From: a virus
Taxonomy: Duplodnaviria > Caudoviricetes
Reading direction: 5' to 3' (one strand)
Virus record (IMG/VR): IMGVR_UViG_3300037484_000435
Location: 416,001 to 480,000 of that record
DNA: 64,000 bases
Below the pieces are notes generated by a model that made no database searches, had not been told where the DNA came from, and saw nothing but the letters and a program-made list of their open reading frames with translations. Of the stretch, positions 7,700 to 54,295 are shown in pieces (position 1 is the stretch's first letter; every line of letters begins with the position of its first letter). Both the position numbers and the translations under genes were made by a program.

Positions 7700-10600
7700 A
7701 TGAAAACTAATAAATCCCCGATGGTGCCTTTTTGGCTCCGCGTCTTTATGATGGTTACTTACCCATTCATATGGGCGGGCCAAAAGATAAAGAAATTGTT
7801 TGAGGTCTAAATGTTAACTTACAGACGAAAATGTAAGTCCTCTCCCTGTTTTTGGGAAGACGACGTCGACCGTAAATTTGAAGAAAATCCAATAGACTAC
7901 AGGAAAGATTCTACCTATGAGTGTCCTGAGTGTGGAAAGATAAATCTAGAGATTGAATTGAAAGACGAAGGAAAAATCTGGCAAATATGGACACCAAAAG
8001 GTTGTGCTACTTTTGACCCTCGATTCTGGGACACAATTATAGATAAGTATAAAGAGGAACCCGATGATAAAACAGCTAAAGTTTAAAATATACCGCCATG
8101 AATGTTATGATTGCGGGCACACTACCTGTAGAGATTTCGTGGTAGAACAGCCAATATGCGTAGAATGTAAGTCCACCACTCCTCCAATAGTTACGGAAGA
8201 AGAGCTAATAAGGGAGATAGAACTATATGATACCTACACACCCGAAGATTATGAGCGAGCCAAAAAAGTTGCCGAGGATATTTTAGCGGGGGTGCCCTTG
8301 GAAGAAATAGATGAACTTGAGTTAGGGGACAATATAAAAGATTCACGAATACCTGCTCTCTTTATGCGAGCTTGTCTTCTATCTGGTGGCGGTGCTGTTC
8401 TAGGAGAAAAGGCGTTTACAGAATGTTCGGTTGTGGTGCTTAAAGATACCAATGACAAAACAATTAAATCGGAACGAGGAAGGTATTACTAAAATGACTC
8501 ATGAAGAAAAGGTTAAGATATTAGAAATATTTAACAGAACCACGGACACTCCTTGGACTGATGAGGAAAAACGCCAACTCATGTATAATTATAGAGTTTG
8601 GGCTGCTGCTCTAACAGGCCCAATTGTTAAACGAATAGATGAATCTGGGTTGCGAAAGTCAATCAAAGTTGTTAAGCTTAATAGGATAAAAAAGGTAAAC
8701 GGTGTGGCGGAAGCTAATCCACTGGTAGTAAAACCCGGGACCCGCTGTTGGAACGGATCGGGTTATAAGCCTTACATAGTTAAGAAGGACGGGTTAGTTA
8801 AAAGTGTCACAGCACAAGCTGCGGGGAGCTTAAGGTTAGGAAGAGTTACCCCCCGAAAATATTGATAAAATGGTAAAAAAGGTAGCTAGTGCTATAATCG
8901 ACTGTGAGGCTGGGGCGATTCTGGATTTAAGGTATCAAGACAAAAATGCTAGCATTACACTTTATGTATTCAGAGACTTCGAGGCCCACGATGACCCCAG
9001 CTTAGTAAGACAGCAGAAGATAGGAATCTTCGGATGGCAAGAATTCGCAGTGGTAGCGGAGTAAGGAGGTAAAGGTGGATAAGATAGACGTAGATGTAGT
9101 TCCTGAAAATAGGTCTATAGCTGATTGGGAATGGCACGAAGCTCACGGGGATAAACAAGCAATCGAGTATATGAATGCTTATCGAAAAGCACTATATGAT
9201 GAAAAGGACCCATGTCATAGTTTTGCAAAACGTGGCGTTGCTATGACAGCAAATTTTTTAAAATGTTATGGAAGGACCAAGGAAAGAAAAGATATGGATA
9301 CTAAATTTTTCTCCGCTAATGGAGAAGTAAATGTAGAAGAAATTTTAGAAAAAGGAAGGACTTACTACTTTCATTACCAAGGCCCCGGCCAACAAGTAGA
9401 ATCTGTAACTAAAACAAGATTATCTGGGGCCACCTATCCAATAACTACACAGAGCCTTAACGCCTTGATAGACAAAATAAACGAACTAGAAGACCGTTTA
9501 GAGAAAATAGAGCAACCGAGTTAGTAATGGGGTCAGCAAATGATAGAGAAGAAAGTAGACGTCGAATGTTGGGATTGTATGGAATTAGATGGCGAAGGGG
9601 AAAAACCTAATTTTAAGCTAATCTGTCTCAAAGGACGTGACCTATATAAAAAGGAAGGCGATCGTTGTCCTGATTATGACTGGAACGAAGTAAATGATCG
9701 CCCATGGTATGAAACGAATGAGTAGATTTTATGTGGTAGAAAACCCACTCAAAATGAAAGCAATACGAAGTGTAAAAAAAGAAAAAGATGGTAAACCTTA
9801 CTATCCTTTCAGATATTGGCCCCGCGGCGACTCAGCCTCAATGCGTGCAGTATGCAACATGTCACGTCGGTGGGAACGTTACTCAATAGCCCGTGACCTG
9901 TTATGGGATAAGGGTCTAGAGGTGCCTGCAAAAGTAAACGATATGATAGACAAGTCAGAAAAATGGTTAGAAGGTTGGGGATTTCTCTGTATGCAGGATA
10001 TGCCACCTGATTTTCAAAAAGTGCTGAATGAACATTTTTGGGAGTTAATTTAATGCTCGACATACTAACTATCAAAAGAGCTCGGCAAGTTCTAGAAGAA
10101 ATAAAAGATTGGGCCCTCTGCCCCATATGCCAAGGCAAGGTGCAGGATGTTTTTGATTTGGAGACACCTGTATGCAAGGTGTGCCATGGGTGGGGCCGAG
10201 TAGCCCCAAAGGAGAATATTCAAGATGGCTAAATTAATTTGTTCTAAGTGTGGGAGTAAAAAATTTGAACCGTGGTCCAGCTCAACCCTAATGATAGGGC
10301 CAAATAAGCACACTTATACTTGTGCTCAATGCGGAAACCAAGAAGAGGTATGGGATAGTGGGGAGGCTTTCCAGCCCATGGAAGTTAACATTAGTCCTAA
10401 GGACAGAGTAGTAAAGAGGTAAAATTATGACAAACATAGTAGCAGGAAAAGTAGAGTTTTGTGACTCCAAAAAGGTTTTGGACATTCTGTATAACGAAAA
10501 TTTGGGCCATGTTTTAGTGGGTAATTATGTTCGTTTTGATGTGATAGTTAAGTACGGAAATTCACTATTAAATAGTGTGCCCATGAAGATTAAACTTAGT

Positions 10601-13994: not shown

Positions 13995-16640
13995 GTGGAT
14001 GGAACACAAACAATTAATAGATAAGATTAACGAGCTGGTGGAAGAGGTCAACCGCTTAGGCCGAGAACCCGTACCACATTATCACAGGGAGGCGGGCAAA
14101 GGAGAGCCGAATTCAGACCTTAACTGGGACCACTATGAGAGAAAGGACAAATGATAAAGAAAATAAATTACAGTGCTCATGACCGCCCGCCATCTACAGT
14201 AGAGTTAGTAGAAAAAATGGACGAGATAATAGACACCATAAATCTATTGATGGAACACGCACTCACACATCCAGTCGATTCTGGTAAACTAATGGCCAGA
14301 ACCCAACAGAAGAATGGAGAACCAAAATGACCCATAAAGAAAATGCTCTAAATAGCTTAACTTCGGCTATGCGGTTTCTAATGAAAGCCGAGACCAAGAA
14401 AGAGGGGGATGAAGCTTACGCACTGGTGCAATATGCCCTCAAAAAGTATTACGACACTATGTGGGTGCATAAAGACGGAGACCAGCGTGATTTCACGCAA
14501 GGCGGGGGCCCTCTAGTGGGTACTTACGACCAATTTCAGGAGTAATAAATGACAACTTCAGAAAAAATGCAACGGCTGTTAGATTTACCTAACAACCCTA
14601 AGCTTGAATTCATGTGTTGTGAAAATAACAACGGGTATGTCGCGATTTTTCGCATAACGTGGGAAGACCAATCTAAGGATGTCTTTATGACCTACGACCA
14701 TACCTTTACGGAAGACGGTAAAGTCGATACAACGTTTGGGCAGTCTACTATAGACGACGCGGTTGATGTGATTTTTGAAAAGGTATCGGCGGGGGTACAA
14801 CAACGCATACAAAGACACAAAGACACCGTTGTAGCCTTCTCGCGGGTAATCGACCGGATGGGCGACGGGAAATAAGAATGAAAATGTGTCTAAAAATAAG
14901 TGTTTTGCTTTTGTGGCTGTTTACTGTCCCATCCTTAGGGGCGGGCGTTGATTGTGAATATTTAGCGAGCGACACGCGGGCTCTGTGTCAACGTTTACAA
15001 GCGATAGAAGCGAAGCAAGACCAGATATTACAAAACCAAACAAAGATAAAGAAAGCCCTGATGTTGATGTCCCGCGGTATTGGCTATGCTGACGGAGATA
15101 ATACGGTAGAGAAAGTATTAAAAGAGAGGTAATTATGGGAACAACACTTAAACAAGAAACAAACCAAGACCTATTGCGGGCACTGCGGGAACATGGGTAT
15201 ACTTTGGTAAGCGTAAGGCATGAACACGACGGAAATCGTATGAGTCACTATCGCGTGGTCCACCCCGACCTACAGGGACACTTTACTATCGTAGACCGAT
15301 ATGATTACTTTGAGAACTTAGGGCAATATGGAAGATTCGATTGTAGATTTTGGGTAAATTCGGACTACGAGAAAGCAGACCGCCGCTCCGATGGGTATAC
15401 TGTACACCATGAAATTGCCCAAGAACCCGAAGAGTGCCTCACCAAAATAGACGCGTGGGCAGAGCATATAAAATCCGGTGAGGAAAAATGGATAATTGGG
15501 GAATGGCGCGAACCCGTAAGATATATCCACCCCATGAGTTTGTGTGACTTTACGTTAGCGTCTGGAGTGGAAATATGGAAGCCAGTAAAAGAGGCAGAAA
15601 TAAATGATTGAAAATATAAGAGGTAAATATGTATACTGGTCTATGAAGGTGTATGTGTGGATAACTACCCTATGGTGGAACCACATTACGAGGCAAAAAG
15701 ACATTCATTGGGATAATATGGACCCCGAACTTCGTAGACAAGTAGAGTGGCATATAAAAAGGGAATTGTAAGGAGGACCTGTATGATAGAAATAAATGGA
15801 AATCGATATGTATTTGCGCCCGAATATACGCCTTATGGCGACGGCTATACAACGAAAGATAGGTATCTAGTCGAAACGGACACGCCCCAAGAATTTTGTG
15901 ATAAGATTGCAGAAGCAGGTAGTGTTTCTAGCTGTTATCGGGTAGAAGACCACGAAGACCACATCTATTTCAATACTAACGTGAAGTCGCGGAAGGAAAT
16001 TTTTATACCTCTGGCAGAACGATATCACATTGCCCCCGAGGAATACGGCTTTGCTTGGTTTCTGATGCCATGGGGAACGGTATATGTTCACTCCTGCGGG
16101 TCAGGACCAAACGATAGTTTTTACCATTCGTATACGTGGTCTAAAGTAAAGGGCTTAACGGAACTAAAACAGACTCTATTTGGAGAGGAAGCATGAGTAT
16201 GGCATGGTTAGCCGAGCATTTTGCAGGCAAAGAAGTTACCTATACAGTGTACACTCTGAAAGGAGGAACTAAAGTATTCCCTTCCTACGTTGACTGGATT
16301 TGGGAAGTGCGTTGTAGAAAATGTGGCGAGGAAGTATTGTTAGCCCGACAAGGGTGTTTAGTTTGTGCCCTGCCTTATTATGGAGAATGCACCGAAGAAG
16401 TGCCTGGTGAAATTAAAAACAATTACCGTTGTGATCGTTGGGCACACGAATGTGGTTGGCCTTACTTCGAGCCTGATGCTTGTGAAAAAAAGAAAAGAAA
16501 ACAAGGCGTAGGGTCTTATGAGATTACATATTATGGTCCCACACCAAAGGAAGACAAATAAAAAGGAATAACCAAGGACCTTCTTTGAATTTCGAGTGTC
16601 TTATTAGATATGGTTACGATTGTTATGGAGGAGTATCAAC

Positions 16641-17431: not shown

Positions 17432-17803
17432 ATGCCAGCAAAAAAGTATTACAGACAAAGTATAGGGAAGGGTTTGTGTTCTATTTGCGGAAAGCCCGCA
17501 CCATATGGAACTAAGTGTGGGGATTGCCAAGAACGACACAATGCCTACAAAAGAGCGAGACGACAACAGATAAAAATAAGAGCTGTAGAATATAAAGGTG
17601 GAAAATGTGAAAAATGTGGCCGAATATTCCACCCTGATGTTTATGACTTTCACCACCGAGACCCTAAAACGAAAGAGAATATAATTACACAAGTGATGGA
17701 TCGTGGATGGCCACAGACGAAAAGAGAAATAGACATGTGTGCTCTCCTATGTGCAAACTGCCATAGGATAGAGCATATAGAAATGAGAGAATCACATCCT
17801 TAG
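17432..17803 (+). CDS. HNH endonuclease
   Basis: GGKCEKCG..YDFHHRDP..LLCANCHRIEH. Confidence 0.8.
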   Translation: MPAKKYYRQSIGKGLCSICGKPAPYGTKCGDCQERHNAYKRARRQQIKIRAVEYKGGKCEKCGRIFHPDVYDFHHRDPKTKENIITQVMDRGWPQTKREIDMCALLCANCHRIEHIEMRESHP

Positions 17804-18013
17804 GTATCCTATCGGGCCGAACATGAAGAGAGGGTGGACCCCCTCCCCTAAGGCATTTTGGGAATTCAAAAGAGTATAGGGCCACCCCCTCGGTCCTATA
17901 CTTTCCTTCCTATTTATTAATTTATCCCTTCTTATATAATATTTTATCATTTCTTTTATACATTCCCCCACTTTATTACGTTCAGAACCGTAAATAAAAA
18001 GCCTTTTGTTTGT

Positions 18014-18048
18014 GGATAAAGAAAGCCTTTGGGACTTTCTTTATTTCC
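18014..18048 (-). terminator. Terminator-like hairpin at the convergence of the + and - gene blocks
   Basis: GGATAAAGAAAG..CTTTCTTTATTTCC inverted repeat; plausible in both directions. Confidence 0.6.
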
Positions 18049-18049
18049 T

Positions 18050-18620
18050 GTCACGTAGAGCAAGAGTGAGTATGACTCTTGCTCCAGTGTTTAGTCTTGT
18101 TCACGATCTACCCCACAGGAGAGGGGTTCCCTCTGCGTCCTCCTTCGAGGTTAACCACATCCCGCGTTTGAGTTACCTCTCTCGCTTTCAATGGCTACGC
18201 TTTGGCATTGAGTCAACATTACCTCCAATAGGACTCCAATCCTACCAGAGGTAATACCAACTCAAGGCAGAGATGGTGGCAAACCACCTCTGCGTTTTTG
18301 GTCTTGAGTCCCATAGACATGAGACGCCGACCTCCCTTACGCTGCCAACGTAAGGCTTTTCTGTCCCCTCTAGCATTGGCTTTGACCTGCCGTTGCTAAA
18401 GGGTTAGTCCCACGTATCTGAGTTGTCACCCCAGAGTTGCGGACAAGAAAGACCTAGCCCGAAAGCTAGTCCACCGTTCAGTGGAACAAATATCTCCAAC
18501 GTCAGGGGAATCCCCAACTGGCTCACTGCTTTTGACCAAAGGCCTACTACCCACAATGGGCAGCGGTGTCCAGTCTACTAACAGATTGCCAGAAGGTTCA
18601 GAGCCCTTCAGTTAGAGAGA
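18050..18620 (-). ncRNA. Large (~570 nt) structured ncRNA candidate, family uncertain (ROOL-class size)
   Basis: No credible ORF; stems at 18058-67/18075-84, 18218-25/18248-55, 18260-66/18303-09 enclosing 18267-72/18288-93, 18335-41/18349-55, 18454-58/18465-69, 18578-82/18611-15; bounded by a promoter-like site and a terminator. Confidence 0.65.
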
Positions 18621-18639
18621 GATTTGTTTCTTTCTCTAT

Positions 18640-18685
18640 TATTACTATTAATATATTATACGCGCGAGGAATAAAAAACCTTTCC
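18640..18685 (-). promoter_or_regulatory. Promoter-like element upstream of the large RNA
   Basis: On -: GGTTTTTTATTCCTCGCGCGTATAATATATTAAT; the same GGTT(C/T)TTT..C(C/T)CGCG..TATA pattern recurs near 21690, 22225, 23385, 23855 and 36265. Confidence 0.5.
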
Positions 18686-18723
18686 GATGTATAAGGCTTC
18701 TTATGTATTCGCGCGGGGAGTAA

Positions 18724-18765
18724 AAGAGCGTTAAAAGGTTTTCACCTCCTTTCTTTAACGCTCTT
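18724..18765 (-). terminator. Terminator insulating the large RNA unit from upstream genes
   Basis: 12-bp perfect stem AAGAGCGTTAAA/TTTAACGCTCTT, followed on - by a U run. Confidence 0.7.
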
Positions 18766-19084
18766 ATACATATGCTAGTAGTTGTATTTCTCTCTCAGGT
18801 CATCGAACATCCCAGCGTATGGGTCATCCGTTTTCCTGAACAGATCATCGTAAGCCTTCTTGTCTTTGGCTTCTCTCTCCAGTTTGTCAATCCTACCAGA
18901 ATTCCAAACAACACCAGCAGCCGCCAACAGTGTCAATGTAACTGGGTCCATAACACACCTCTCGTGTGGAATATGCGTATTACGTATTTTATAGAGGTGT
19001 CTCCCTCTACTCTTACTTAAATAACTATGACGCGCGGGGTTAGCGTAAACACGAGATGTACAGTCTCATGTTATACGCTATCCA

Positions 19085-19358
19085 TTAACTGATGTCCTTG
19101 AGGAATCTATGCAAGCCCTTCCTCATGTCTTCCCCAAGATGCCTCATATCTCGGAGAAACTTTTCATCTGCTGTTTCGGGCTCAGGTTCGGTTGCCCGTT
19201 TGATTTCGGTAACCTTATCCTCAACCTTCCTGACCACAGCTTTAATCTCGCCCCGCACAAAACGCGCGGCTTGATTGAACTGCTCAGCTTTAGACTCCCC
19301 CGCATTACTACGGCGGGCAAGTCCTTATAAGCCCATCTAGTCTTTCCAAAAACGACAT
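19085..19358 (-). pseudogene. Frameshifted hypothetical gene
   Basis: SD+ATG 19358 gives MSFLERLDGLI; a +1 shift near 19326 continues GLARRSNAGESKAEQ..FLKDIS to the stop at 19085. Confidence 0.45.
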
Positions 19359-22300
19359 TGCTATTCTCCCCTTACCCGATTTGAACTCGGGGGATCTGGA
19401 TATTGTCGATAGGCAAACCAAGTTGCTTACACTCGGACATGAGTTTCAGCAACTCTTGTTTATCTAGGGTTAGCTCTTGGGCGAGCCTGTTTATAACCAT
19501 GACCTTCTTCAAGTAGCTCTCAGTCATCTTGTTAAGTTTCTGGAGCTTTCCCCTTTTTGTTATGGCTATTCCAAACATGACACCCTCCTTCTGGGTATTG
19601 CGTTCTTTACATATTAACATTTTATATACCACACGTATACGTTCTAAATACACGCGGGTATAAGAGAGACGTTAATTAATCGCCTCCTTTCTTGTCTCTC
19701 TTATAGGTAAACTACTTGGTCTTTTCATTTACCTGCTTCTTCAGTTCCTTTGCTTTCTTGTCGACCCAGTCGGACGTTCGCTTGACGTCCTTGTTGTCGT
19801 CCTTTATCTGGGCCCATCTCGTCTCGACCTTGTTGGCCCAATCAACCAAGGCCCCTGCATGGGCGTTTACCGAGATGAAACAAAACAACACGGCCAGCAT
19901 AACGACTACTCTTTTCATTTCCCTCTCCTTTTATACCCAACGTGCATGACGCACATCAGGCGGAAGATCTAGAGGAGAACCCAAGAGAGGTTCCCTATCC
20001 AGAGTTATTACTTCAACAGGCCTGCCATACAGCATTGCTGCGATGCTGGCCTTCTCTTCGGACCCTGTTACGGCGAGGGGCTTCTCCTCACCGTGGATAG
20101 CATAGAGTGTATACATAACACACCCCTTTATCAAAACAAGGTTACGGTAGCCTTTCACTACAACTTGGAGAATACTATGTTCTCTATTATTACATAAATA
20201 TATATACGCACGTGCGTATAGAAGTACCCTTCAAGGGTTAGGGGGAAAGAAAAGAATGGTACAAGAAAAGAAATATGGCTTTATACACGCGTGGGCGGGG
20301 CTATGTTTAAAAAAGTTAGTCACTTTTTCCATAGAAGAAGTTCTCAGTGTTGTATGTAGGGTAATCTGTACAAAGCTAACGCTATTAATCTGCCTGTAAC
20401 AAGACAAACTAATAGTGTATGGGCACAAGGACGTGCCCGATAGGTACAATTGGAAGTGCGAAAGGGGTTGGATAACCAGTGTCTTAATGCTTTATTATAG
20501 TGAACGTAAAGACACACAACATATTCACTTTTATTTCTCTTGCCGCATCTTATTTTATTCTCTCTTCGACGGCTCCAACAATTTAGGAACGGAATACTAG
20601 GAAAATAAAACTAGAAGAGATACCTTTTATTATTACAGGGAGGCGTTACACGTTCACTCACACACATAATTAAATAGAAAAGCATCTATTATTTTTATCA
20701 GGGTAGTTAAATACGAGCGGTAACGAGCAACAAGATAAGAGAAAAGGCCAAAAAGAGAAAATAAAGACGAAAAAACTTAAAAAGGCTTAAATAGAGGGTT
20801 ACGAAAATTGAAAAACCGAACAAAGTGAATACAAAATCAATAAAAGAGGGAGATGGAGGAAATAAAACACAAATAATTGAAAATAAAGTGGAATTAGGGC
20901 AGCAAAATGGGAGCAAAGAGGTCCGAGAGGGGGAGGGCGCGCATCTTATATAAAAAACAGGTGGGGGATAGGATGGGAAAAGAAAACCCTTAATTTATTA
21001 TTATGTATGTACCTATATGTTTATTGTTTTTCTGTTTATCTCCCTATCGATATGCGTATGTATAATCACTACCTTTTCCATTAGTAAGTGGTAAGTAAAA
21101 TAAAAAAGCTTTTGTTTAGCTAATTATCTGTTTCGTTCCTTGTACGTGTGGGTATCAATTATGCAGTATAATCTTTAGTTTCTTTTTCCTGTTATATCCA
21201 ACAGTTGGGTATCTTGTTTTAATTGCTTATCGGGTACCTATCGGAAAAGCCTCTCTAATCAATTCTAGTCCCTTCTTATGTTCAAGTAGGTGTAGAATTG
21301 TCTTAAAGGTTTGCATCGTTCTATACCGCTTATATTAATTCTGAGGGCATATATCTATGCATATCACGGAGAACAGAAAAACCCTAAATAGAGTTAATCT
21401 GTCTATTCCACCATCCATCTCCTTTCTTCCCACATACGAGCAACTGCTTCCCAGTCACCTCGCATTATAGCTTTGGCCATGGGCAACCGAAGCTCTTGAT
21501 AGATGTAAGCCTCATAAGCTGCGTATCCCTTAAAGGCTTCCATCCTCTTCATTTTTCTTTTAGCACATTCTAGTTTCTCTTCTAGTGTGCCATACCGATT
21601 ACACTGTGTGCAATCGTGCATACGGGTCCTCCTTTCTCTCTACCTTAACATACGTGCACGTATGTTATTATTCTTTTACTCTATAATTATAAATGCGTAT
21701 GTGCGGGGACCAAAAGAACCTTAAATTATAGGTAGTCCTTTTGGTTTAGTAATTGTTCTGGTAATAATTGAGCAAAGTTATTAGGTGTTGGTCTGTAGTA
21801 CTTCTGTTGACCATCACCTGTTTCATGATTTGTTCTCCGTCAAACCATTGGGGGATTTCTCCCTTATGTGTAAACCCAAGTCTAGCAAGTTGTTTTGCCA
21901 AGTTCTCAGGTACACACACTACGAAAGGAGTATCACTAGCATATGCCTCTATTAACAGGGCCACTCCTTCTTTCCTATTCTTTGGGGCAAAGTGACTAAC
22001 CACGAATACCCCTTCAATCCACTGCCCTACCAGACAAGAGTCCATCTGATAGGGGCGATATACTATGCCACAGCCCCGCCCCAAGTGGCTAGCGAGGTCA
22101 CAGCAATAAGAAGACCCTCTCGATATGGCCTTCTCGTACCAGTCCGCTATGGAGCTGGCTTCTTCTTCTGTCTCAACAACAAAGAATCTTGTATTGTCCA
22201 TAACGGACCCCCTTTATATCCTACATGTGCGCGAGGGTGAAAAGAACCTTTCTGGAATCCGAATTAACGGTCCCCAAGGTTCTTTTCCAAATTGTGTTGG

Positions 22301-23296
22301 TCTCTAGACGTGCATTGTGCAATCGATGAAGTTCTCTCCCTCAATTGCCTGTCTCGCCATACGTTCTCGTGCGATAAGTCTTTGACGAGCGATCTGGTTC
22401 TTTCTTTGTTCTTCCGCAAGCAACTCGGCCTCATAAAGCTTTTTTGCCCGAAGTTCTTGTTGCCGAGCAACTTCCCTTTCTTCATTGACCATTCGACGCC
22501 TCTCGGCTTTGATTGCTCGGGCGTCTCTTATTTCGTCCACGCGATCCGCGATCTTCTCGTTAAGGTCGATGGCCTTGGTTACGGCCGAGTCCTTTACAAC
22601 CTTAAGCCCGTCAACAGCCTTTTCCGCCACGTATTGCACTGGAGCAACTGCGGCAAGGTCAACTATCCCAGCAGCGACCTTGACAGTCGACCCAGTGACT
22701 TTGGCTGAAGTTTCAAGGACATCCGCTACCAGATTCGCAATAAAGCTCATCGGTTTGTAGAATCTTCTCATGACATTACTCCTTCTAAAACGAACCAATC
22801 GAGATACCAGCAAAACTGGCTAGACGCACATACGCCTATTTAATTCTCTATTATCATATCAATATATTATTACGCTATACACACGCGATGTTAGGGAAAG
22901 CATTTAATTGCTAACCCATGGACATGATCGTCGTGCATGCCCCATCACCACCCAAGTTTTACTGTCATTAGGTGGACGCCCCGATCGCGCTTTTACGATC
23001 CAATCGGGAAGATCCTTGTAGATTACCAACAGGCTTCAACAACTAGAACTTTAAGCCCCCATCTACGGGCTTCAACTTCTGCCTCTAATTGCCCCAGATA
23101 GTCACGCATTTCATTTTCTGTGTAATCAAGTCCGCAGTTATTGCAAACCCAGACTTCTCCCTTTCTCTCCAATATGCCATTACGGCACCTCGGGCATTTC
23201 ATCATGTACCCCCATGTTGATCTTTTTCTATTTTGTCCTTCATTAATTATAACATGCAGGTACACGAAACCTTTTCTTTGGTCATTTTCTTTTAGT

Positions 23297-23359
23297 ACCC
23301 GATTACTATCTAACTATAGATCCTATGAAGGGTTAGTGGGATACTAACTAGGATCTATA
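23297..23359. repeat. Dispersed hairpin element, copy 1
   Basis: ACCC..TATAGATCCTA-tgaagg-GTTAG-tgggata-CTAAC-TAGGATCTATA. Confidence 0.7.
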
Positions 23360-24375
23360 TATTATATGCGACAAGTATACGTTCCGCGGGTGTGAAAAGA
23401 ACCTTTCTGAACTCCAAACAAATGGGCTCCAAAGTTCTTCTCTTGATTTGTTGTATGATCATTTGTTGTAGTATAAGCCCAATATCTGCGAATCATACCA
23501 CAGTTGTACTTCTGGACTTTGGAATCTTTCGTCTCCAAATTCATCCAAAAGGTCTTCTTTACTCGTTCTTTGAGCTTGTAAGCACAGTTGCTCAGCACGT
23601 AACGCCTCTCTTCGCCTTAACGTTAAGGCAGGAACCAAATACATCATAACACCCTCCCTTGTCATGCACGCAATAAACAATTTGTTTTGGGGCATAATCC
23701 CTCCCAATAGTTCCTTTCCCCACAAAAGGTTTACTCATTGGGGCCACCTCAGGTCTTATTGTTTGCCTAAGGCTGATACTCACACATTAATATGTTCCCG
23801 CTCCTATACAGGATTAATTTGTAATGTGCTTTCTCTATTTAAATAATAAATATATGCGCGGGTATATAAAAAACCAATCTCGTGACCACTGGGAGGGAGG
23901 GTCGGAAGGTGAGATTGGTTTTTTGGCTTTTGGTGGTAGGGACCGAGAAATTCTCGATCCCCAATGTAGCAACAATTTACAAAACAAAGGAGTTGTCATG
24001 GCAGAGACTGGGGGATCCCCTAACATCTCTACTATTTAGTATATATACCCTCAGGGTTAGTGGGAAGAAAAGAAGGTACAAGAAAAGAAAGGTTTGGGTT
24101 GTGGAGGGCCACCAGCGTGACCCTCTCCGCAGTCATGGTTTGGACTCAGGTTGGGAAAGCATGCCCCACAGGAGTAACAGTATCACCCCTAACAGCAGGA
24201 TGCCACCAATGCCATCATCCGTGGTTTCTTCGTCGTGTTCCTTCATATTCACCTCCAAGATGCCAGATGCAAAGCCCACCTACATACGCATGCATTTTTC
24301 AGGAGGGGGCGTTGCGGTCTTTTTTCTGTTGGTCGCTGGCAAATTTGTAAGGGCCTTGGTTAAGTTGTCTATTTA

Positions 24376-24870
24376 TTACTCAGGTAACCCAATATGGTCA
24401 ATGATTCCCTTCTCCTTAGCTTCTTCAGCCAAGAAATAGGTATCGGTTCTTAGCCATTCGTGGGTTTCTTCCCCAAGGCAATCACTATGGGCGACGTAGA
24501 AATCCTCGAACCTTTCGATATTTCGTTTCACGCGTTCTAAGGTTGAGGGTGCAGCATCACCATTGATATGCACGTTGTACGTGCCTCTATGTATCATTAC
24601 TTCTGCATCTGAGGACATATAGCGTCTGCCCTTGGTCCCCAGCATCAGTAGCATGGCTGCTGCACTGAACGCATAGCCTAAGCACACAGTTGTTACCGTG
24701 TGCTTCTTTGCCTCAAGCCTACGAATCAAAGGCATTGTGGCTAGAATAGCTTCACCATCTCCCCCGCCACTATTGATGATGATCGTGACATCCTCGTTTG
24801 CCTCCCATAACTTGGAAAGCAATTCCTTTTCTACATCTGTCGTGATTTCGCCTGTAATGGTGATTAACAT
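24376..24870 (-). CDS. clpP: ClpP-like protease
   Basis: IIINSGGGD, GYAFSAAAMLL (catalytic Ser), VMIHR (His), DTYFLAEEAKEKGIIDHI. Confidence 0.85.
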   Translation of the reverse strand: MLITITGEITTDVEKELLSKLWEANEDVTIIINSGGGDGEAILATMPLIRRLEAKKHTVTTVCLGYAFSAAAMLLMLGTKGRRYMSSDAEVMIHRGTYNVHINGDAAPSTLERVKRNIERFEDFYVAHSDCLGEETHEWLRTDTYFLAEEAKEKGIIDHIGLPE

Positions 24871-25519
24871 GGCTTACTCCTGCACGAAATGTGGACAGCG
24901 ACAGTGATACTCCGTCGCCTTTCTGCAGGCTGAGTCAATGGCCTCTTGAATAAAGTCAGGGGGCTGACTACCCCATTCCCCACGGCTGAACTCGTGTTCT
25001 ACCGTAGAGAGGATCTCGTCAGGATCGAGTTTAGAGAAACCACAGAACTTTCTAACGAGAATCTCAAATTCTCCCCGCCAATGTTCCACACCAATCATCC
25101 ACATCCCCACACGAACAGGGATGAGAGCATGACGGCCACAGGACAGATGCCCGCCACGAGGAATGTAAATAGCCTTGGGTTTACTACCATCCTCGTTGAC
25201 GATAACGACAGCATTTCCTGTGTTGGTTGCCGATCCTCCCTCCTCCCACATACATGGGAGTCCAGTTTTGCTTCTTTCAATGTTCTTCATGTCCGTGTCC
25301 TTTCTTAGACGTGAACTGGAATAGCACCATTTTTTGTTATAGAGTCGTGCTTCTCTATTACTTGTTAAGTATATATTGCTCGTCCATGGGTGCGCATGTA
25401 ACTCCAATTAAAGGGTCCTTGCCACATAACCTATCATTGGTTGTGTTCAGGATTGCCTCCACCCCTCTATTAAGACCAGAGGGGAATCCTCGTGTTGAGG
25501 ACTCCCCTATTGAACTACT

Positions 25520-36203: not shown

Positions 36204-36454
36204 AACCTCTTCTCCTTTCCTCATACGTGCGGGTTGATAAACAACCTTTCTTATCTTATATTTACCGCGGGTACACACGAAACTTTCTTTTGTATTCATA
36301 TTTTCTTTGTACCCGATTGTACTTCAATCGCCTAGATTCTATATTACCCTCTATTGAAGGGATAGAGGGATATATAACTAGGCTCCTTGCCGCATTGGCG
36401 CGGACGCCTACTCGACGCTGCCAGTGGTTACTCTTAACTGAAAATTTCAAATAA

Positions 36455-37050
36455 TACATCACCACCTTTGGAACACCAAAGGGGAAGTGTCCAGTTCAAG
36501 CATCGAGAGAAGCTGTAATCTTCTCAAAATACATATCGGGTGAACTAGAAAATACCCGTCCTGTTTCACAGGCTTAGAGCTTTTGTTATGGCCAAGCCCA
36601 AGACCTTTTTCGCTAACTGTAATAATTAAGCGATGGTTAAGGGTTTTCTCCAGTTGAATTCTTCCTGTCTTATGATCACTCAAAAACCAAGGTTTCCAAT
36701 TCAGGGCTACCCTAGGTAGAGTAGCCCCTCCCATAATCACGACATCTGCTCCTCTTGTCATTGAGTCTGTCTCCCTTTCAGAGTGTGACTCAACCTTCTT
36801 GGGGAGGGAGGGGTAGCAGATCGCTGTCACTGATTGAACCTGACTCGGTTTGCTCGGATTTCTCTCCGAACAATTTAACGTCTGACCGAACCCTTTTACT
36901 TCTACTGTCATGGCCCTTCCTTTTCTCTGATGCTTCGGGTAGGCACCAAAGCAATGTTGAGATGTTTTGTGATGAAACTTCAACCTAGGCAACAACGAGA
37001 CAACCATACTACAATTGTCAAGTCTTACCACCTCTTTAGCTCTAAACAAA
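36455..37050 (-). ncRNA. OLE-like large ornate RNA candidate (~600 nt)
   Basis: Many stems (36465-82, 36507-25, 36537-58, 36560-72, 36704-27, 36762-92); RNA-sense blocks AAGAGGUGGUAAGAC, UAGUAUGGUU, UAGGUUGAAGUU, CUCAACAUUGCU, CAGUGACAG, AAGGUUGAGUC and UUGGAAACCUU in an order resembling OLE RNA as I recall it. Confidence 0.6.
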
Positions 37051-37399: not shown

Positions 37400-39384
37400 A
37401 TTGATATACAAAGAGGGGAGCTGGAACGTAAGAAAGTGGGAAGCAAATGGAAAATTTACCTAAACAGACGGATTTTACACCGTCTGTAGGTAAATTTGTA
37501 GCTGGATTTACTTAGGAAGCAAATAAGGGTTGTGTTTGAAAGCCAACGATAGGATTCCCTTTACAACCATGCCTGTAATTTGCACTCCTGCTCCGCACAT
37601 CCTTGCTACTGACCTCTCATCTGCTCTAAAATAAGTTCTTTGGTAACTATTCTTGATTGATCCGTCTCTACGATAAGTCCTCCTTTGCGTGTTGTAGTAC
37701 TCTACCATTCTTGGTAAGTACCTCCTAGTATTTTTGCCAACAAACACAATTGAATCTTAGGATTAACCTAATCACATTTTGAACAATCATTGTTGGCTTC
37801 AACTATAAATCACAAACAATCTGCCAAAAGATTCCTTGTTGGTCAACAACCATTATCAATCAACTTTCATTACGAAAGAACGATGAGAGTTCCTATGAAC
37901 TGGACCGTTGTGTTTTGAGACGTCTATCCTCTTCCATCCGCCTACGTCTTTCTCTCTCAGCCTTCAGCTCCTGCCGTTTAGCATACTTCTTAACGGCCCG
38001 CTCCCTAGCTTTTCTCAACAACTCTGAACCAGCAACGTTCTTACCGTCTACGTAAGTGATACCTTCCGACAGTTTGTTGAGCGAGAAGATCAGCCCGTTA
38101 CGATGCTTTCGAGCATGCAGTTTCTTGGCATGTTCGGCCAACAATTTGGCATGCTCCGCGTTTTCACACTGAAACGTAGCGGTTGTCTTGTCTGCTGGGA
38201 GATCCAACGTGGTAGGAGTTCCACCTACCATCTTCCGAGCATTGAATTTACACTCCACTACATCGCCCCGCACAGTAGCCTCAATCACTTTCACCCCTTT
38301 ATAAGGGGCACTGAAGCGACCACTCTTACCTGAACCACCCTCAGAACTTTTCTTTCCCATTGTCAAACCTCCTTTTGGTTTACCTTTCGGATATGGGATT
38401 TGTAGCCCCAGAACGTAAGCCTATGGAACAAAATAACATTCGGGGCTATATTAAACGTTATTTTTGTGCGAAATCAAGCCATCTGAGCGAATTTCGCATT
38501 TGCGGCCCGCAAAGACCCCCATAAGCATATCAGGCAGTTACATATGGCATCCTTAGTGTTACCAAGGAGCCGAAAATAAACGCCTAACTAGAGAAATAGC
38601 AACCTACGAAACCATCGGTGGTTTCTGTGGCCTCCTCGGGTTCGTGGCCCAGATGGTCACACAATAGAGCACCACAGTCACTATGTAGCCCGTGAAAGTA
38701 AACGTCTACGTCTTCATTGTAGGGCAGACAGACATCAATGAACTGCATCTCTATTATATTGGACCAATACACCTCTTGGTCAGGGTGCCCCAAAGGCTCA
38801 AATAAAGACCTTTGTAGGTCTTGTAATTCCAGTAACTCCGTATCTGTCATTCTTTAACCTCTATGGTATCGCACCTTTCGGGGATTACAAATGCCACAAA
38901 TTCACTCCCCGCACCGTCTTTTGGTCGCGCTCTCAACGCATTTATGAGGGAAGAATTCGTAAATCCCAAAGGGATAGCACTGCTACTTATTTGGGCGTTA
39001 AGACCATCTTCCAAATAACGGCCCCAGCACTTACCACAACCACAATAACGGATGTGATAGGTAAGTTTGATTACGTCTTGGCATTCTTGGCAGAAAATGA
39101 GCTTCATATTCTTCCACTCCTAAAACGTAAAACCCCTAGATTTATCTAGGGGCTTCACGGCCTTGTGGGTTATCAACAAGCCAGAGACCTCAAAACCCGG
39201 TTGAGCGTCTCAGGATCGAGAATCTTGTAAGGTTCTCTCTCGTTCTTGTTGGGCTCGATGACACACCGCCCCTCAACGATGAGGGACACCCTTGGGGGAC
39301 GACCCGTAATTGTATCAACGCGGTCGACGATCGGATTGAGCCTCTGGTCCTGTTCCATTTAATGCTTCCTTTCTGTCTGGATAT

Positions 39385-46025: not shown

Positions 46026-46929
46026 GTGGTTGCATATCGCCCGTTAGGGATTAGCTGAAATTGTAGTGACTCGAATCACAATCCAGACAATCCCTAGCCC
46101 CCGACGAACAACGAATACAGGGTTTAGCACCCGTGTTATATCCGTAGCCGAGGTCATCCAAGACGTTTACGGACCTTTCTGCGAGGAACTCTTCGTCCTC
46201 GCGAATTGTCCGCTTCTCTGTCCGACGATCCACCTTTCGGCCCATCCTCAACTCCTTTCGAAAGAAAAAAGGCACACAGGTAATTACCTGCATGCCTGTT
46301 GGGTTCGGGGATTACCGTTTTCCAAAAGAGGTTCCAAGGTTTTCCTTCAGGAGGGCACCGAGGCTGGAAGCGGGTTGCTCCTCTTCTTCGGTGTACGGAA
46401 CAGGATTATCTGGGCACTGACAACAATGGTCGTCATACCCAAAATTGTCCTTATACTTCCTGCACACCGTCTGGCAATACTCCTCCTGTTCCTCTTTGGT
46501 CACCTCGTGGCGATTGAAGACCACTTTAGAGCCTGAGATATTGATGTCGTTACTTGTCAGACGACGCCCATCAATAGACCAAGCCTCTATCTCGATCTTC
46601 ACCCTGCAACACGAACTGTGAATCAGTGCTCGAAAGTCTGGATGGTCCACGATCTTTCTCCACAAATAATCGATGTCTGTAGCAGACATAGGTATTGTGA
46701 GTCGATCGTTGGTTATGATGGTAACCAAATAGACCTTCCACGCTTCCGACTCCCAGCGGGCGGGCCTGATGAAGGTCCAAACCGCAATGGCCATTGCTGT
46801 GGTGTAATCGATCCAATTCCGGATCTGACCATCAACCACAAAAAGAGTTTCCTTGGTTTCTCGGTTGTTTGACATGATCGACCTCCGCTCTTTTGGTTGG
46901 CGTGCGATGCACGCAGGCTATCTTTTATA

Positions 46930-46980
46930 ACCCATTTATCATTTAATATACCTTGGGAAAGAGGGTACTTTCCTTTAAGG
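46930..46980. repeat. Dispersed hairpin element, copy 7
   Basis: ACCC..TATA-CCTTG-GGAAAG-agggta-CTTTCC-TTTAAGG. Confidence 0.75.
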
Positions 46981-47012
46981 TAAATTAGAAAAACATGTGA
47001 GTAGGTGTATGT

Positions 47013-48204
47013 AAAATTTTTTAACTAACTTAGTTTTTAGAGTAAGAAGTTAAAAATTTTAATGATGAGGTGATCTCAATTTGTTAACCTACAAATTCAG
47101 AATGTATCCAACAAAAATACAACAGGCAAAGCTCTGGAAACATGCAAATTTGTTGAATCGGCTTTACAATTACTTCCTAAAACAACGTTTAGAAGCATTT
47201 GAAAAGAATGAGCCAAGAATTTATCGCTATCAGCAACAGGCTGAATTGGTTCAATTAAAAAAGGATATCCCAGAGATTAAAGAGATCCATGCTCAAGTTT
47301 TACAACAAGTTCCGTTAAGATTGGATAATGCTTATACCGCGTTTCTTAAGAGAATCAAATTAAAACAAGGAAAGCCTTGCTATAGGAGTTGCCACAATTT
47401 CTTTGGAATTACTTATCCTCAGAGCGGGTACAAAATAACTAAAACAAGTCTCTGCACAAAAGCATATGGAAAAATAAAACTTTTCCAGCACCGAGGAGTT
47501 ATTGGAGAAATAAAACAAATCAAAATAATTTGCAAAAATGAGAAGTGGTTCGTATGTGTAACAACTGACCACAGGTTACCAACTTCTACCTCTGGGTCTA
47601 GAATGATTGGTTTAGATTTAGGTATTGCTAACTTGGTAGCAACCTCCGAAGGGGAAATTATACCCAATAGAAGTCACGCACGTTACTTTAATAAACAAAT
47701 CAACAAACTGAGATCACATCAGGATAAAAAATGCAAAAAAAACTCAAGGAGGCATAAATTTCTTTCTAGGTCTATTAGTAAGTTGTATGGTGCAAAAGTT
47801 AGAAAAACAAATGATTTTTTGCACAAGGTGTCTAGACGCCTAACCCTAAAATATGATACAATTGTTATTGAAGACCTTACACTGAAGAAGATGTCGGAAT
47901 CTAATATTAGAGGGTTAAACCGCGAATTGCGGAACAGTTGCTTAGCACGATTTATATATTACTTAAGTTACAAAGCCGAACGTTTAATAAAGGTTAATCC
48001 TATGAATACTTCCAAGATGTGTAATCGTTGTGGCCGTATTCATGATATGCCTTTATCAAAACGTACATTGGTTTGTGAGTGTGGAAATGTTGTAGATCGA
48101 GATGTTAATGCAGCTCAAAACATACTTTGCTTGGGACGAGCCTATTTATTAAATTTAATAGATAGTACTGCGATACTAACGCAGGAAGTGCTTGCACAGT
48201 TCAC
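47013..48204 (+). mobile_element. Non-autonomous IS200/IS605-type element carrying tnpB
   Basis: Left hairpin 47013-26/47048-60; right-end-like CAGGAAG..GTTCAC ending at 48204; opposite strand to its neighbours; no tnpA; left boundary approximate. Confidence 0.6.
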
Positions 48205-48244
48205 TAACCCTTCTTTCATGAAATATAACCTTAAAGTAGGGTAA
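47081..48244 (+). CDS. tnpB: RNA-guided endonuclease TnpB
   Basis: YKFRMYPT HTH, RuvC-I IGLDLG, RuvC-II VIEDL, zinc finger CNRCG..CECG, RuvC-III DRDVNAAQNI; catalytic residues intact. Confidence 0.95.
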   Translation: MLTYKFRMYPTKIQQAKLWKHANLLNRLYNYFLKQRLEAFEKNEPRIYRYQQQAELVQLKKDIPEIKEIHAQVLQQVPLRLDNAYTAFLKRIKLKQGKPCYRSCHNFFGITYPQSGYKITKTSLCTKAYGKIKLFQHRGVIGEIKQIKIICKNEKWFVCVTTDHRLPTSTSGSRMIGLDLGIANLVATSEGEIIPNRSHARYFNKQINKLRSHQDKKCKKNSRRHKFLSRSISKLYGAKVRKTNDFLHKVSRRLTLKYDTIVIEDLTLKKMSESNIRGLNRELRNSCLARFIYYLSYKAERLIKVNPMNTSKMCNRCGRIHDMPLSKRTLVCECGNVVDRDVNAAQNILCLGRAYLLNLIDSTAILTQEVLAQFTNPSFMKYNLKVG

Positions 48245-48264
48245 GAGGGTACCCTAATTGAAGG
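48207..48264. repeat. Dispersed hairpin element, copy 8 (overlaps the tnpB stop)
   Basis: ACCC..TATAA-CCTT-aaag-TAGGGTA-agaggg-TACCCTA-attg-AAGG. Confidence 0.7.
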
Positions 48265-48312
48265 ATATATAGAAGAGGTAGGTAAGCATACACGTACATG
48301 CCCATTTTTATA

Positions 48313-48362
48313 ACCCTTCAGTCTTTGAATATACTTCTGGGTTAGAGGGTCTAACTTGAAGG
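48313..48362. repeat. Dispersed hairpin element, copy 9
   Basis: ACCC..TATA-CTTC-tgg-GTTAG-agggt-CTAAC-tt-GAAGG. Confidence 0.7.
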
Positions 48363-48798
48363 TACATTGACTTTTGTATTGTCTTAGTCTTTGTTTGATT
48401 GATTAGGCATATAAGCCCCTACATGAGGGACTTATACACCTTTAGCTGGATTCTATGTCCGAATTGTCTTTTCGGGATAGAGGGAAATCTCCCATTGAAT
48501 AGCAAGAATTTGATTGGAGCGACTACCGATGTTGTGGCGACTCACAACTTCAAGACCCAGATCGCCATAATCACCACCAGTCTGCATCAACGAGGTGTGA
48601 ACAAAAAGCCAGAGATAAGTCATTTGGATTCCTCCTGTTTACGAGCATGGAGCAGACATGCAAGAGTTTGTTCTGCATTTGAATAAGCCATTTGTAACCA
48701 AACCTTGGTTTTCTCGTTACTATATTCTCCCTGAGCCTTTTCTACATCTCGTCGAAGCATTTCCGCATCTTCAATAAGGTCAAGTAGGGGAGTTACAC

Positions 48799-52235: not shown

Positions 52236-52256
52236 AACTTTCGAATCTACCTTTTA

Positions 52257-52391: not shown

Positions 52392-52393
52392 TT

Positions 52394-53164: not shown

Positions 53165-53185
53165 CCACTTTTCTCCTTTTTACTT

Positions 53186-54280: not shown

Positions 54281-54295
54281 ACCTGTAAATCCGAC

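What the first reader, a model, noticed from the sequence alone, without database searches (positions are those of the whole stretch)
18050..18620. Stand-alone ~570-nt structured RNA unit at the convergence of the two gene blocks
The unit is insulated by an upstream 12-bp terminator (18724-65), a promoter-like site (18640-85) and a downstream terminator (18014-48), and has no credible ORF. It has at least eight stems, including a nested domain (18260-66/18303-09 around 18267-93) and a 10-bp perfect hairpin near the 3' end. The size matches the ROOL class, and the 5' UGAAGGGC..UGAAC..UAGUAG is faintly reminiscent of it, but I cannot assign the family. It may be new.
Basis: partly seen in the sequence, partly recalled or inferred. 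Interest (0 to 1): 0.8.

Follow-up and report, generated by a model that had tools for sequence, protein, structure and literature searches.

The report
Orphan 600-nt structured RNA, megaphage
A 545-kb uncultured sediment phage has a gene-free stretch of about 600 bases that very probably makes a tightly folded non-coding RNA from its own phage-type promoter. It matches no known RNA family, and I found it only in near-identical copies of this phage, so neither its reality as an RNA nor its function is proven.

Summary
Window 18040-18637 (minus strand) has no credible ORF under any genetic code. It folds far better than shuffled sequence: -250.7 vs -190.5 +/- 6.3 kcal/mol, z = -9.6. It folds 46 kcal/mol better on the minus strand than on the plus strand, with 31 G-U pairs. 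Per base it is the most stable of the 35 ORF-free gaps of at least 300 nt in the genome.

It follows a promoter-like cassette (GC box, A/T-rich box, TAATAGAGAA). Four neighbouring minus-strand units carry the same cassette.

The ROOL hint is not supported. No Rfam family reaches its gathering score in the window, and nothing credible appears at E <= 10 in 17700-19000.

I found no homologue. The syntenic regions of the 647-kb and 658-kb relatives lack it, and so do 59 IMG/VR records. All k-mer scans gave only chance hits. Only identical or 95-97% identical copies exist, in sediment, wetland and freshwater metagenomes. Their substitutions neither support nor reject the fold, apart from one possible U-A to C-G exchange seen across two different runs.

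Verdict: a probable lineage-restricted large structured ncRNA gene of a new family, with the mechanism inferred only.

This scan had already noted the same stretch in an overlapping window (e1-5381370). It has found no look-alike on other DNA.

The parts
18724..18765 (-). Terminator-type hairpin that ends the upstream 58-aa gene (18775-18951). Stem of 12 or more bp, loop GAAAGGAGGUGAAAAC, followed by UUUUAC. It insulates the RNA unit from upstream transcription.
   Evidence: -21.2 kcal/mol, z = -5.2. Sequence read.
18632..18669 (-). Promoter-like cassette: GC box CCTCGCGCG (18661-18669), TATAAT/ATATATT (18650-18660) and the conserved decamer TAATAGAGAA (18632-18641). The transcription start is not mapped; it probably lies between 18648 and 18630.
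   Evidence: The same cassette lies ahead of four other minus-strand units (20189, 22853, 23840, 25360). The decamer is enriched: 17 found against 5.8 +/- 2.0 expected.
18040..18637 (-). Body of the predicted structured non-coding RNA, about 600 nt. Allowing for unmapped ends, the length could be 580-650 nt.
   Evidence: z = -9.56. Minus strand -250.7 vs plus strand -204.6 kcal/mol. It is the most stable ORF-free gap in the genome per nt. No ORF. No Rfam match.
18454..18627 (-). 5' domain. A multibranch fold is closed by long-range helices 18622-18627/18486-18491 and 18611-18618/18493-18500. It encloses a small hairpin, a long interrupted arm and a 7-bp hairpin. Two further hairpins follow, one capped by UUCG.
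   Evidence: helix probabilities 0.80-0.98. Used for model R1. The pair 18622:18491 shows a possible compensatory change across runs X2 and X3.
18267..18403 (-). Central row of four stable hairpins: 10+3 bp, 9 bp, 4+7 bp and 11 bp. They are separated by A-rich single-stranded linkers.
   Evidence: probabilities 0.94-1.00.
18208..18265 (-). 27-bp uninterrupted hairpin with G-U pairs and apical loop UGGA. It is the longest duplex in the RNA and a candidate site for RNase III or another dsRNA-binding protein (inferred).
   Evidence: mean probability 0.96; the 200-nt window 18201-18400, which includes it, is the most structured in the 64-kb window (z = -9.0 on the minus strand).
18044..18197 (-). 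3' domain. It holds a three-level arm capped by a GUAA (GNRA) tetraloop, small hairpins, and a perfect 12-bp hairpin (18056-18086).
   Evidence: Used for model R2.
18014..18048 (-). A/U-rich 11-bp hairpin, a possible 3'-end or terminator element. It is weak, with no U-run directly after it. A GGCUUUUUAUUU tract follows at about 17995-18006.
   Evidence: the 66-nt piece folds at -14.4 kcal/mol, z = -2.3. Not called by the terminator scan.

Best explanation
This is a stand-alone gene for a non-coding RNA of about 600 nt (580-650) that is highly base-paired. It is transcribed on the minus strand from a phage-specific promoter cassette, which it shares with four neighbouring small accessory genes. 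It ends at the point where the plus- and minus-strand gene blocks converge. It belongs to no described RNA family. It is confined to one megaphage lineage and sits inside a lineage-specific island of orphan genes.

Shown here: there is no ORF; the thermodynamic structure is extreme and strand-specific; the promoter-like cassette recurs; the unit is single-copy; and near-identical copies occur in several metagenomes.

Inferred mechanism: the RNA acts through its fold rather than by base-pairing to a target, because I found no antisense target in the phage genome. It most likely serves as a stable protein-binding scaffold or decoy during infection, for example by holding a host RNA-binding, nuclease or defence protein. 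The 27-bp duplex is a likely site for RNase III or another dsRNA-binding protein. The 5' and 3' hairpins would protect the ends. I give about 0.6 to 'real structured ncRNA gene' and about 0.2 to the specific scaffold/decoy mechanism.
For: Thermodynamics and strand: z = -9.56 for 591 nt. The minus strand folds at -250.7 kcal/mol with 31 G-U pairs, the plus strand at -204.6. It is the most stable of the 35 ORF-free gaps of at least 300 nt in the 545-kb genome, at -0.398 kcal/mol/nt. The genome is 92% covered by ORFs of 70 aa or more. Most helices have pair probability above 0.9, and the fold includes UUCG and GUAA tetraloops.

Coding: no ORF under the standard code or with any single stop reassigned.

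Promoter: the cassette is shared with four adjacent minus-strand units and is enriched over chance. A strong terminator hairpin lies upstream.

Copy number: single copy in its genome.

Other samples: a second JGI sample holds a 100% identical copy. Unitigs 95-97% identical over the RNA occur in the three other metagenomes that were laid (two wetland, one freshwater), while the flanks gave only short partial matches.

Variation: both G-to-A changes in those variants fall on G-U pairs. U-to-C at 18622 (run X2) and A-to-G at 18491 (run X3) are predicted partners.

Targets: no antisense complementarity of 17 nt or more to the rest of the phage genome.
Against: No homologue more divergent than about 95%, so there is no real covariation test.

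Of 12 in-helix substitutions in close relatives, 7 keep pairing, 1 may be compensated and 4 break pairs. That is about what transitions give by chance.

The two 'compensatory' changes come from different runs and may not lie on one molecule.

The 3' terminator is weak.

Relatives with 64-69% identical neighbour proteins lack any RNA-sized gap at the same place. The element is therefore evolutionarily young or dispensable.

The fold is a row of hairpins with only two deeply nested domains, and I found no pseudoknot or loop-loop contact.
Confidence: 0.6

Rival explanations
1. It is a transcription buffer at a convergent junction. The hairpin-dense spacer exists to stop or slow RNA polymerases arriving from both gene blocks, and any RNA made from it is a by-product with no function of its own.
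For: It lies exactly where the plus block (ending at 17803) meets the minus block, and where GC skew changes sign. The plus strand is also more structured than shuffles, with z about -4 to -5 in 200-nt windows. The fold is largely a row of independent hairpins. The element is absent from relatives.
Against: A promoter cassette of the local family points into the region, which a buffer would not need. The 46 kcal/mol strand asymmetry and 31 G-U pairs indicate selection on one transcript. Long-range helices close a 140-nt domain. Other ORF-free gaps in this genome show nothing comparable. 600 nt is far more than termination requires.
Confidence: 0.15
2. It is a precursor that is cut (for example by RNase III at the 27-bp duplex) into several smaller stable RNAs, and those are the active species.
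For: A 27-bp uninterrupted duplex sits about two thirds of the way along. The domains on either side fold independently, and A-rich linkers separate the hairpins.
Against: There are no repeated units, no tRNA-like or CRISPR-like elements, and no targets for small products in the phage genome. There are no processing data.
Confidence: 0.08
3. It is a very diverged member of the phage 'ornate' RNAs (ROOL or GOLLD type) that self-assembles into an RNA-only multimer.
For: The size (about 600 nt), the phage origin, the stand-alone gene and the lack of a protein partner gene resemble ROOL and GOLLD as described in PMC12286853.
Against: No hit to any Rfam model, even at E <= 10. No tRNA island nearby. 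No predicted pseudoknots, palindromic loops or complementary loops. The family is not widespread: nothing turned up in 59 IMG/VR records or in the k-mer scans.
Confidence: 0.04
4. It is a DNA-level element (a replication, packaging or recombination site) whose hairpins act in DNA rather than in RNA.
For: It sits at a strand-block switch with a local GC-skew extreme. It contains many inverted repeats.
Against: The skew extreme here is local. The global extremes lie at about 120 kb and 380 kb, and the skew follows gene orientation. Many helices depend on G-U pairs that would be A-C mismatches on the other strand. A promoter cassette precedes the region.
Confidence: 0.05
5. It is a remnant of a mobile RNA element (an intron-like or ribozyme element) that moved together with the adjacent HNH endonuclease gene.
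For: An HNH endonuclease gene (17432-17803, +) lies 230 nt from the RNA's 3' end. An 86%-identical HNH in another metagenome keeps the same upstream gene order, and its contig ends just before the RNA position.
Against: No group I or II intron or small-ribozyme model matches. No gene is interrupted. The HNH gene is on the opposite strand and is translationally coupled to the plus operon. Neither nhmmer with the whole RNA nor model R1 (5' domain) finds anything within 3 kb of 80 HNH homologues.
Confidence: 0.04

Closest known systems
ROOL RNA (Rfam accession RF03087, recalled from memory), a large ornate phage/prophage RNA
   Same: About 600 nt, encoded by phages, a stand-alone non-coding gene, extensive secondary structure, function unknown (PMC12286853).
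   Different: No match to the covariance model at any threshold tried. Not near tRNAs. No predicted pseudoknots or kissing loops. ROOL is widespread, whereas this RNA is confined to one phage lineage.
GOLLD RNA (Rfam accession RF01998, recalled from memory)
   Same: A large structured RNA of phages and prophages, expressed during lytic growth, with no known partner (PMC12286853).
   Different: GOLLD is about 800 nt or more, has a conserved 3' core and usually lies in tRNA arrays. Here there is no model match.
OLE RNA (Rfam RF01071)
   Same: Similar length (about 600 nt) and the same character as a stand-alone, highly structured ncRNA.
   Different: OLE is a chromosomal RNA of Bacillota that forms a membrane RNP with dedicated partner proteins. 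Here there is no model match, and this is a phage RNA with no partner gene.
phi29 pRNA and other phage-encoded structural RNAs (own knowledge)
   Same: A phage-encoded, own-promoter, non-coding RNA that acts through its fold as part of a protein machine.
   Different: pRNA is about 170 nt, sits at a genome end and forms rings through loop-loop pairing. None of this is seen here.
A 1-kb structured megaphage RNA reported earlier in this scan (e1-5364320, another genome)
   Same: The same kind of object: a stand-alone, ORF-free, densely structured RNA gene of a giant phage with no Rfam family.
   Different: The sequence is unrelated, with no look-alike in the scan's index. That RNA was reported with conserved helices and RNA-survey support, both of which are missing here.

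Membership tests
ROOL | Match to the Rfam covariance model | tested here: not met
   No hit at gathering score in the whole window. No hit at E <= 10 in 17700-19000.
ROOL | Phage or prophage location, usually beside tRNA islands (PMC12286853) | tested here: not met
   The origin is a phage, but there is no tRNA in the 64-kb window. The nearest of the genome's 40 tRNAs is about 40 kb away.
ROOL | Conserved pseudoknots and kissing loops; homo-oligomeric nanocage | tested here: inconclusive
   No Watson-Crick complementarity of 5 nt or more between unpaired segments of the MFE fold. This is a weak test. Multimerisation cannot be tested with these tools.
GOLLD | Match to the Rfam covariance model (conserved 3' core) | tested here: not met
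   no hit.
OLE | Match to the Rfam covariance model; Bacillota chromosome beside the ole-associated protein genes | tested here: not met
   no hit. The context is a phage island of orphan genes.
Group I / group II introns | Match to the intron core models, and interruption of a host gene | tested here: not met
   No model hit. The flanks are a terminator hairpin and a convergent HNH gene, not exon halves.
OMEGA guide RNAs (HEARO / IscB, IsrB, TnpB omega-RNA) | Lies directly beside its nuclease gene on the same strand; match to the HEARO model | tested here: not met
   The nearest TnpB (47081-48244) and RRXRR protein (54976-55995) are 28-37 kb away. No model hit.
Y RNA / YrlA (Ro60 ligands) | Lies beside the Ro60 (rsr) gene; Ro-binding stem plus tRNA-like module; about 100-200 nt | tested here: not met
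   The phage does encode a TROVE/Ro60 ORF, but at genome 67.3-68.0 kb, about 366 kb away. No tRNA-like module and no Rfam hit.
Generic stand-alone structured ncRNA gene | ORF-free, with a fold significantly more stable than shuffles on one strand | tested here: met
   (no ORF). (z = -9.56; 46 kcal/mol strand asymmetry; top of 35 gaps).
Generic stand-alone structured ncRNA gene | Own promoter and terminator | tested here: inconclusive
   The promoter-like cassette is shared with four neighbouring units and is enriched. The 3' terminator is weak. The ends are not mapped.
Generic stand-alone structured ncRNA gene | Compensatory base changes among homologues | tested here: inconclusive
   Only 95-100% identical copies are available. 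There is one candidate U-A to C-G exchange, split over two runs. The other changes are uninformative.
Generic stand-alone structured ncRNA gene | Detected as a discrete transcript | not testable with these tools
   No RNA holder was listed.

The most novel reading that the evidence does not exclude
The RNA is the founding member of a new class of large phage RNAs that work as an architectural RNP or RNA-only assembly. It might, for example, be a substrate, partner or decoy tied to this megaphage's unusually rich RNA toolkit: Ro60/TROVE, RtcB, RNA ligases, MYG1 exonuclease, 40 tRNAs and several other structured RNA candidates. If so, giant phages would invent their own large structured RNAs lineage by lineage.
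Probability: 0.1. Interest if true: 0.8.

Novelty: new variant of a known kind. Interest (0 to 1): 0.5.

Why it matters
Large structured RNAs of unknown function (ROOL, GOLLD, OLE) are among the least understood bacterial and phage gene products, and only a few classes are known. If this is a real 600-nt structured RNA unique to one megaphage lineage, such RNAs can arise as young, lineage-specific accessory genes. That would contrast with the view that they exist only as ancient, widespread families. It would also give a compact, well-delimited test object (promoter, about 35 helices, a 27-bp duplex) for structure and partner-finding experiments.

Its value is limited for now. There is neither covariation nor expression evidence, and the host is unknown.

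Tried and rejected
Family searches
- Rfam at gathering score over the whole window: 0 hits.
- Rfam at E <= 10 over 17700-19000: only chance-level hits (Giardia U6 at 21.6 bits against a cut-off of 100, two microRNAs, sraL).
- GenBank phages, blastn 'distant' mode: no match.

Neighbour proteins
- The 136-aa, 93-aa and 424-aa neighbours have no close relatives in viral contigs.
- The 424-aa neighbour is an orphan among 5.8 billion proteins.

K-mer scans
- CTGTTAGTAGACTGG in viral contigs: 13 hits, all chance by nhmmer.
- A 19-mer in metagenome contigs: 0 hits.
- GAGAGGTAACTCAAACG in metagenome contigs: 26 hits, all chance. L122 and L130 looked similar over three blocks, but they lie antisense inside a 1153-aa repeat-protein ORF, and nhmmer gave only E = 0.18.
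- The same 17-mer in viral contigs: 0 hits.
- CAAAAACGCAGAGGTG in viral contigs: 11 chance hits.
- A 17-mer in genome contigs: 1 chance hit, in a Syntrophomonadaceae MAG.

Walking the relatives
- I followed the 647-kb and 658-kb relatives through the look-up of encoding contigs (L017-L025, L106-L108). Synteny holds up to window gene 16193-16561 and then ends.
- nhmmer --max and model R1 find nothing in those loci. The records themselves are not held for whole-record search.

Covariance models
- R1 (5' domain): 0 hits at E <= 1 in 33 IMG/VR records and 0 near 80 HNH homologues. It finds only itself in its own genome.
- R2 (3' domain): 2 weak partial hits (15.6 and 13.8 bits) in 48 records. Both lack the 3' 67 model positions, and this is the number expected by chance.

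Other sources
- Exact-protein look-ups gave only a 100% identical contig (L110), plus contigs without DNA or contigs that end before the RNA.
- Earlier scan notes: no look-alike in other genomes.
- Expression: no RNA holder was listed.
- Coverage: the absence of contig cover on the flanks is only a weak hint, because the runs were chosen through the RNA itself.

Analyses that led nowhere
- Antisense targets in the phage genome: none of 17 nt or more.
- K-mer enrichment within the RNA: nothing striking.
- The first full z-scan script timed out.

Full report
WHERE IT IS. The window is bases 416001-480000 of a single 545,322-bp IMG/VR virus record, judged complete by CheckV. It is a sediment megaphage with 40 tRNAs. 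The finding lies on the minus strand, where a plus-strand gene block ending at 17803 meets a minus-strand block. GC skew changes sign at this point. The change is one of four block switches in the genome and is not the global skew extreme.

THE OBSERVATION
- Coding. The stretch 18040-18637 has no credible ORF. The longest minus-strand ORF is 50 aa. Reassigning TAA, TAG or TGA opens no frame across it. I checked this because the genome carries a CUA suppressor tRNA.
- Stability. The minus-strand RNA of 18040-18630 folds at -250.7 kcal/mol, against -190.5 +/- 6.3 for dinucleotide shuffles (z = -9.56, 0 of 100 shuffles as good).
- Strand. The plus strand reaches only -204.6 kcal/mol, and the minus-strand fold uses 31 G-U pairs. 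The structure is therefore read on the minus-strand transcript and not in duplex DNA.
- Ranking within the window. In a 200-nt sliding scan of the 64-kb window, 18201-18400 (-) is the most structured segment (z = -9.0).
- Ranking within the genome. ORFs of 70 aa or more cover 92% of the genome. Among its 35 ORF-free gaps of at least 300 nt, this one is the most stable per nucleotide (-0.398 kcal/mol/nt) and has the lowest z. It is not simply how spacers look in this phage.

ANATOMY (RNA 5' to 3' runs from high to low window coordinates)
- 5' domain (18627-18454). Two long-range helices close it: 18622-27/18486-91 and 18611-18/18493-500. They enclose a 5-bp hairpin, a long interrupted arm (helices of 4, 5, 7, 2 and 8 bp) and a 7-bp hairpin. 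Two further hairpins follow, one capped by UUCG.
- A small branched element (18410-18442).
- Four stable hairpins (18403-18267) separated by A-rich linkers.
- A 27-bp uninterrupted hairpin (18265-18208).
- 3' domain (18197-18044), with a GUAA-capped arm and a perfect 12-bp hairpin (18086-18056; the 46-nt piece folds at -20.6 kcal/mol).
- Most helices have ensemble probabilities above 0.9.
ACUCAA occurs three times and could support alternative pairings.
- I found no loop-loop complementarity of 5 nt or more.

TRANSCRIPTION SIGNALS
- Upstream terminator. The 58-aa gene (18775-18951) ends in a strong hairpin at 18724-18765 (-21.2 kcal/mol, z = -5.2), followed by UUUUAC.
- Promoter-like cassette. 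Next come a GC box (18661-18669), TATAAT/ATATATT (18650-18660) and TAATAGAGAA (18632-18641).
- Recurrence. The same three-part cassette stands before four other minus-strand units, at 20189, 22853, 23840 and 25360. At least two of these lead straight into small protein genes.
- Enrichment. The decamer with up to 1 mismatch occurs 17 times in the window, against 5.8 +/- 2.0 expected.
- 5' stem-loop. In several copies the TAGAG of the decamer pairs with a CUCUA a few bases downstream. That suggests a 5' stem-loop on the transcripts.
- Timing and start. The RNA thus appears to belong to one local transcription class along with accessory genes. The start site is not mapped (18648-18630).
- 3' end. 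It is less clear. The hairpin at 18014-18048 is A/U-rich and has no U-run directly after it, and the terminator scan did not call it.

WHAT IT IS NOT
- No Rfam 15 family reaches its gathering score anywhere in the window.
- At E <= 10 over 17700-19000, only chance hits appear. ROOL, GOLLD, OLE, HEARO, introns, RNase P, tmRNA, 6S, Y RNAs and the small ribozymes are therefore excluded as far as their models can see.
- ARAGORN finds no tRNA or tmRNA in the window.
- ROOL and GOLLD are described as phage and prophage RNAs that often lie near tRNA islands and have conserved pseudoknots and kissing loops (PMC12286853). None of these features is present here.

SEARCH FOR RELATIVES
- The RNA is single-copy in its own genome. 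It has no match in GenBank phages.
- Its immediate neighbours are orphans or nearly so.
- A capsid-like paralogue 21 kb away led me to relatives on contigs of 647 kb and 658 kb. I walked along them.
- Gene order is shared up to window gene 16193-16561 (67% identity) and then diverges. Neither nhmmer nor a covariance model of the 5' domain finds the RNA there.
- Contigs with 64-69% identical copies of the 136-aa neighbour continue with plus-strand genes and leave no RNA-sized gap.
- An 86%-identical HNH gene in JGI sample 3300075153 keeps the local gene order. Its contig ends 100 nt past the HNH gene, and no DNA was available.
- Single-sequence covariance models of the 5' and 3' domains found nothing credible in 59 IMG/VR records or beside 80 HNH homologues.
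- Six k-mer scans of the viral, metagenome and genome collections returned only chance matches.

CLOSE COPIES
- A contig from a second JGI sample is 100% identical over 3,646 nt, including the whole RNA.
- Seven further metagenomes (wetland, freshwater, bog, biogas) hold 5-21% of the RNA's 31-mers.
- In three of them, short unitigs 95-97% identical cover 18118-18268, 18303-18489, 18448-18598 and 18509-18659. The coding flanks gave only short partial matches. This is a weak hint of higher conservation, because the runs were selected through the RNA itself.
- I mapped 14 variant positions onto the fold. Of the 12 that fall in helices, 7 keep pairing through wobble or improve it, and 4 break pairs (3 of these at helix ends). 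This is roughly what transitions do by chance.
- Two details lean towards constraint. Both G-to-A changes hit G-U pairs. Also, U-to-C at 18622 (run X2) and A-to-G at 18491 (run X3) are predicted partners in the closing helix of the 5' domain. Together they would turn U-A into C-G. They come from different samples, so linkage is not shown.

INTERPRETATION
The best-supported reading is a genuine stand-alone gene for a large structured ncRNA. It is young and lineage-restricted, and it sits in an island of orphan accessory genes with which it shares a promoter type. Three observations point to an RNA that acts through its shape: it has no antisense target in the phage genome, it has no repeats, and it has no partner gene. 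I therefore favour a stable protein-binding scaffold or decoy. In that picture the 27-bp duplex is a likely site for RNase III or another dsRNA-binding protein, and terminal hairpins stabilise the ends. This mechanism is inference only.

The main rival is a hairpin-rich buffer between convergent transcription units. It is disfavoured by the inward-pointing promoter cassette, the strand asymmetry, the long-range helices and the ordinariness of the other spacers. The other rivals are a processed multi-RNA precursor, a diverged ROOL/GOLLD-type assembly, a DNA-level site and an HNH-linked mobile remnant. Each has specific evidence against it, given under rival explanations.

LIMITS
I obtained no usable covariation, and the host is unknown. 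The call of 'new family' therefore rests on three things: thermodynamics, gene-structure logic, and the absence of any match.

VERDICT
The ROOL idea is rejected. In kind, this resembles the large structured phage RNAs, but it is a member of none of them. Interest is moderate (0.5).

Noticed in passing
window 18632-25360, minus strand (sites ending at 18641, 20189, 22853, 23840, 25360): A local family of five promoter-like cassettes: GC box, then an A/T-rich TATAAT-like box, then TAATAGAGAA 14-18 nt further on. The TAGAG often pairs with a downstream CUCUA to form a 5' hairpin. This is probably a phage-specific promoter or leader class for this accessory arm.
   Followed up: partly
G000:C1:67310-68026 (+), outside the window: The phage encodes a Ro60/TROVE-domain protein (538-aa open frame; 59 bits, or 80 bits when neighbouring matches are added). 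Just upstream, at 56-67 kb, is a cluster of six ORF-free gaps of 330-1115 nt interspersed with tRNAs. This is a candidate region for Y-RNA-like partners.
   Followed up: partly
G000:C1:47126-47202: One of the 40 phage tRNAs has a CUA anticodon (ARAGORN calls it 'tRNA-Pyl'). It is an amber suppressor, which suggests that TAG is read through or recoded in some phage genes.
   Followed up: no
window 47081-63832: A dense set of RNA-handling and OMEGA-type genes: TnpB (47081-48244, +), RNA ligase (53186-54280, -), an RRXRR (IscB/IsrB-like) protein (54976-55995, -), RtcB (57974-59131, -) and a MYG1 exonuclease (62831-63832, -). No HEARO or omega-RNA model hit accompanies them.
   Followed up: no
window 17850-17990, minus strand: Directly after the RNA comes an A/T-rich tract with a looser copy of the cassette (TAAATAGGAAGGAAAG), then an 8-bp hairpin followed by CUUUUGAAUU. 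It may be a second tiny transcription unit or a back-up terminator. Its fold is not better than shuffles (z = -0.1). A metagenome unitig matched only 17831-17888, with unrelated flanks.
   Followed up: partly
window 18724-18765: The terminator hairpin of the upstream gene displays GAAAGGAGGUGA, an extended Shine-Dalgarno-like sequence, in its loop, with no start codon after it.
   Followed up: no
window 8701-8900 (-), 36301-36500 (+), 37401-37600 (-), 46901-47100 (-), 50801-51000 (+): Other 200-nt windows with z <= -6.5 in the coarse fold scan (only 14 shuffles each, so the values are noisy). 46901-47100 abuts the start of the TnpB gene.
   Followed up: no
window 17432-17803 (+): A 123-aa stand-alone HNH endonuclease (PHROG 2255) is translationally coupled to the preceding gene and is the last gene of the plus block. 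An 86%-identical copy with the same upstream gene order is in JGI sample 3300075153.
   Followed up: yes
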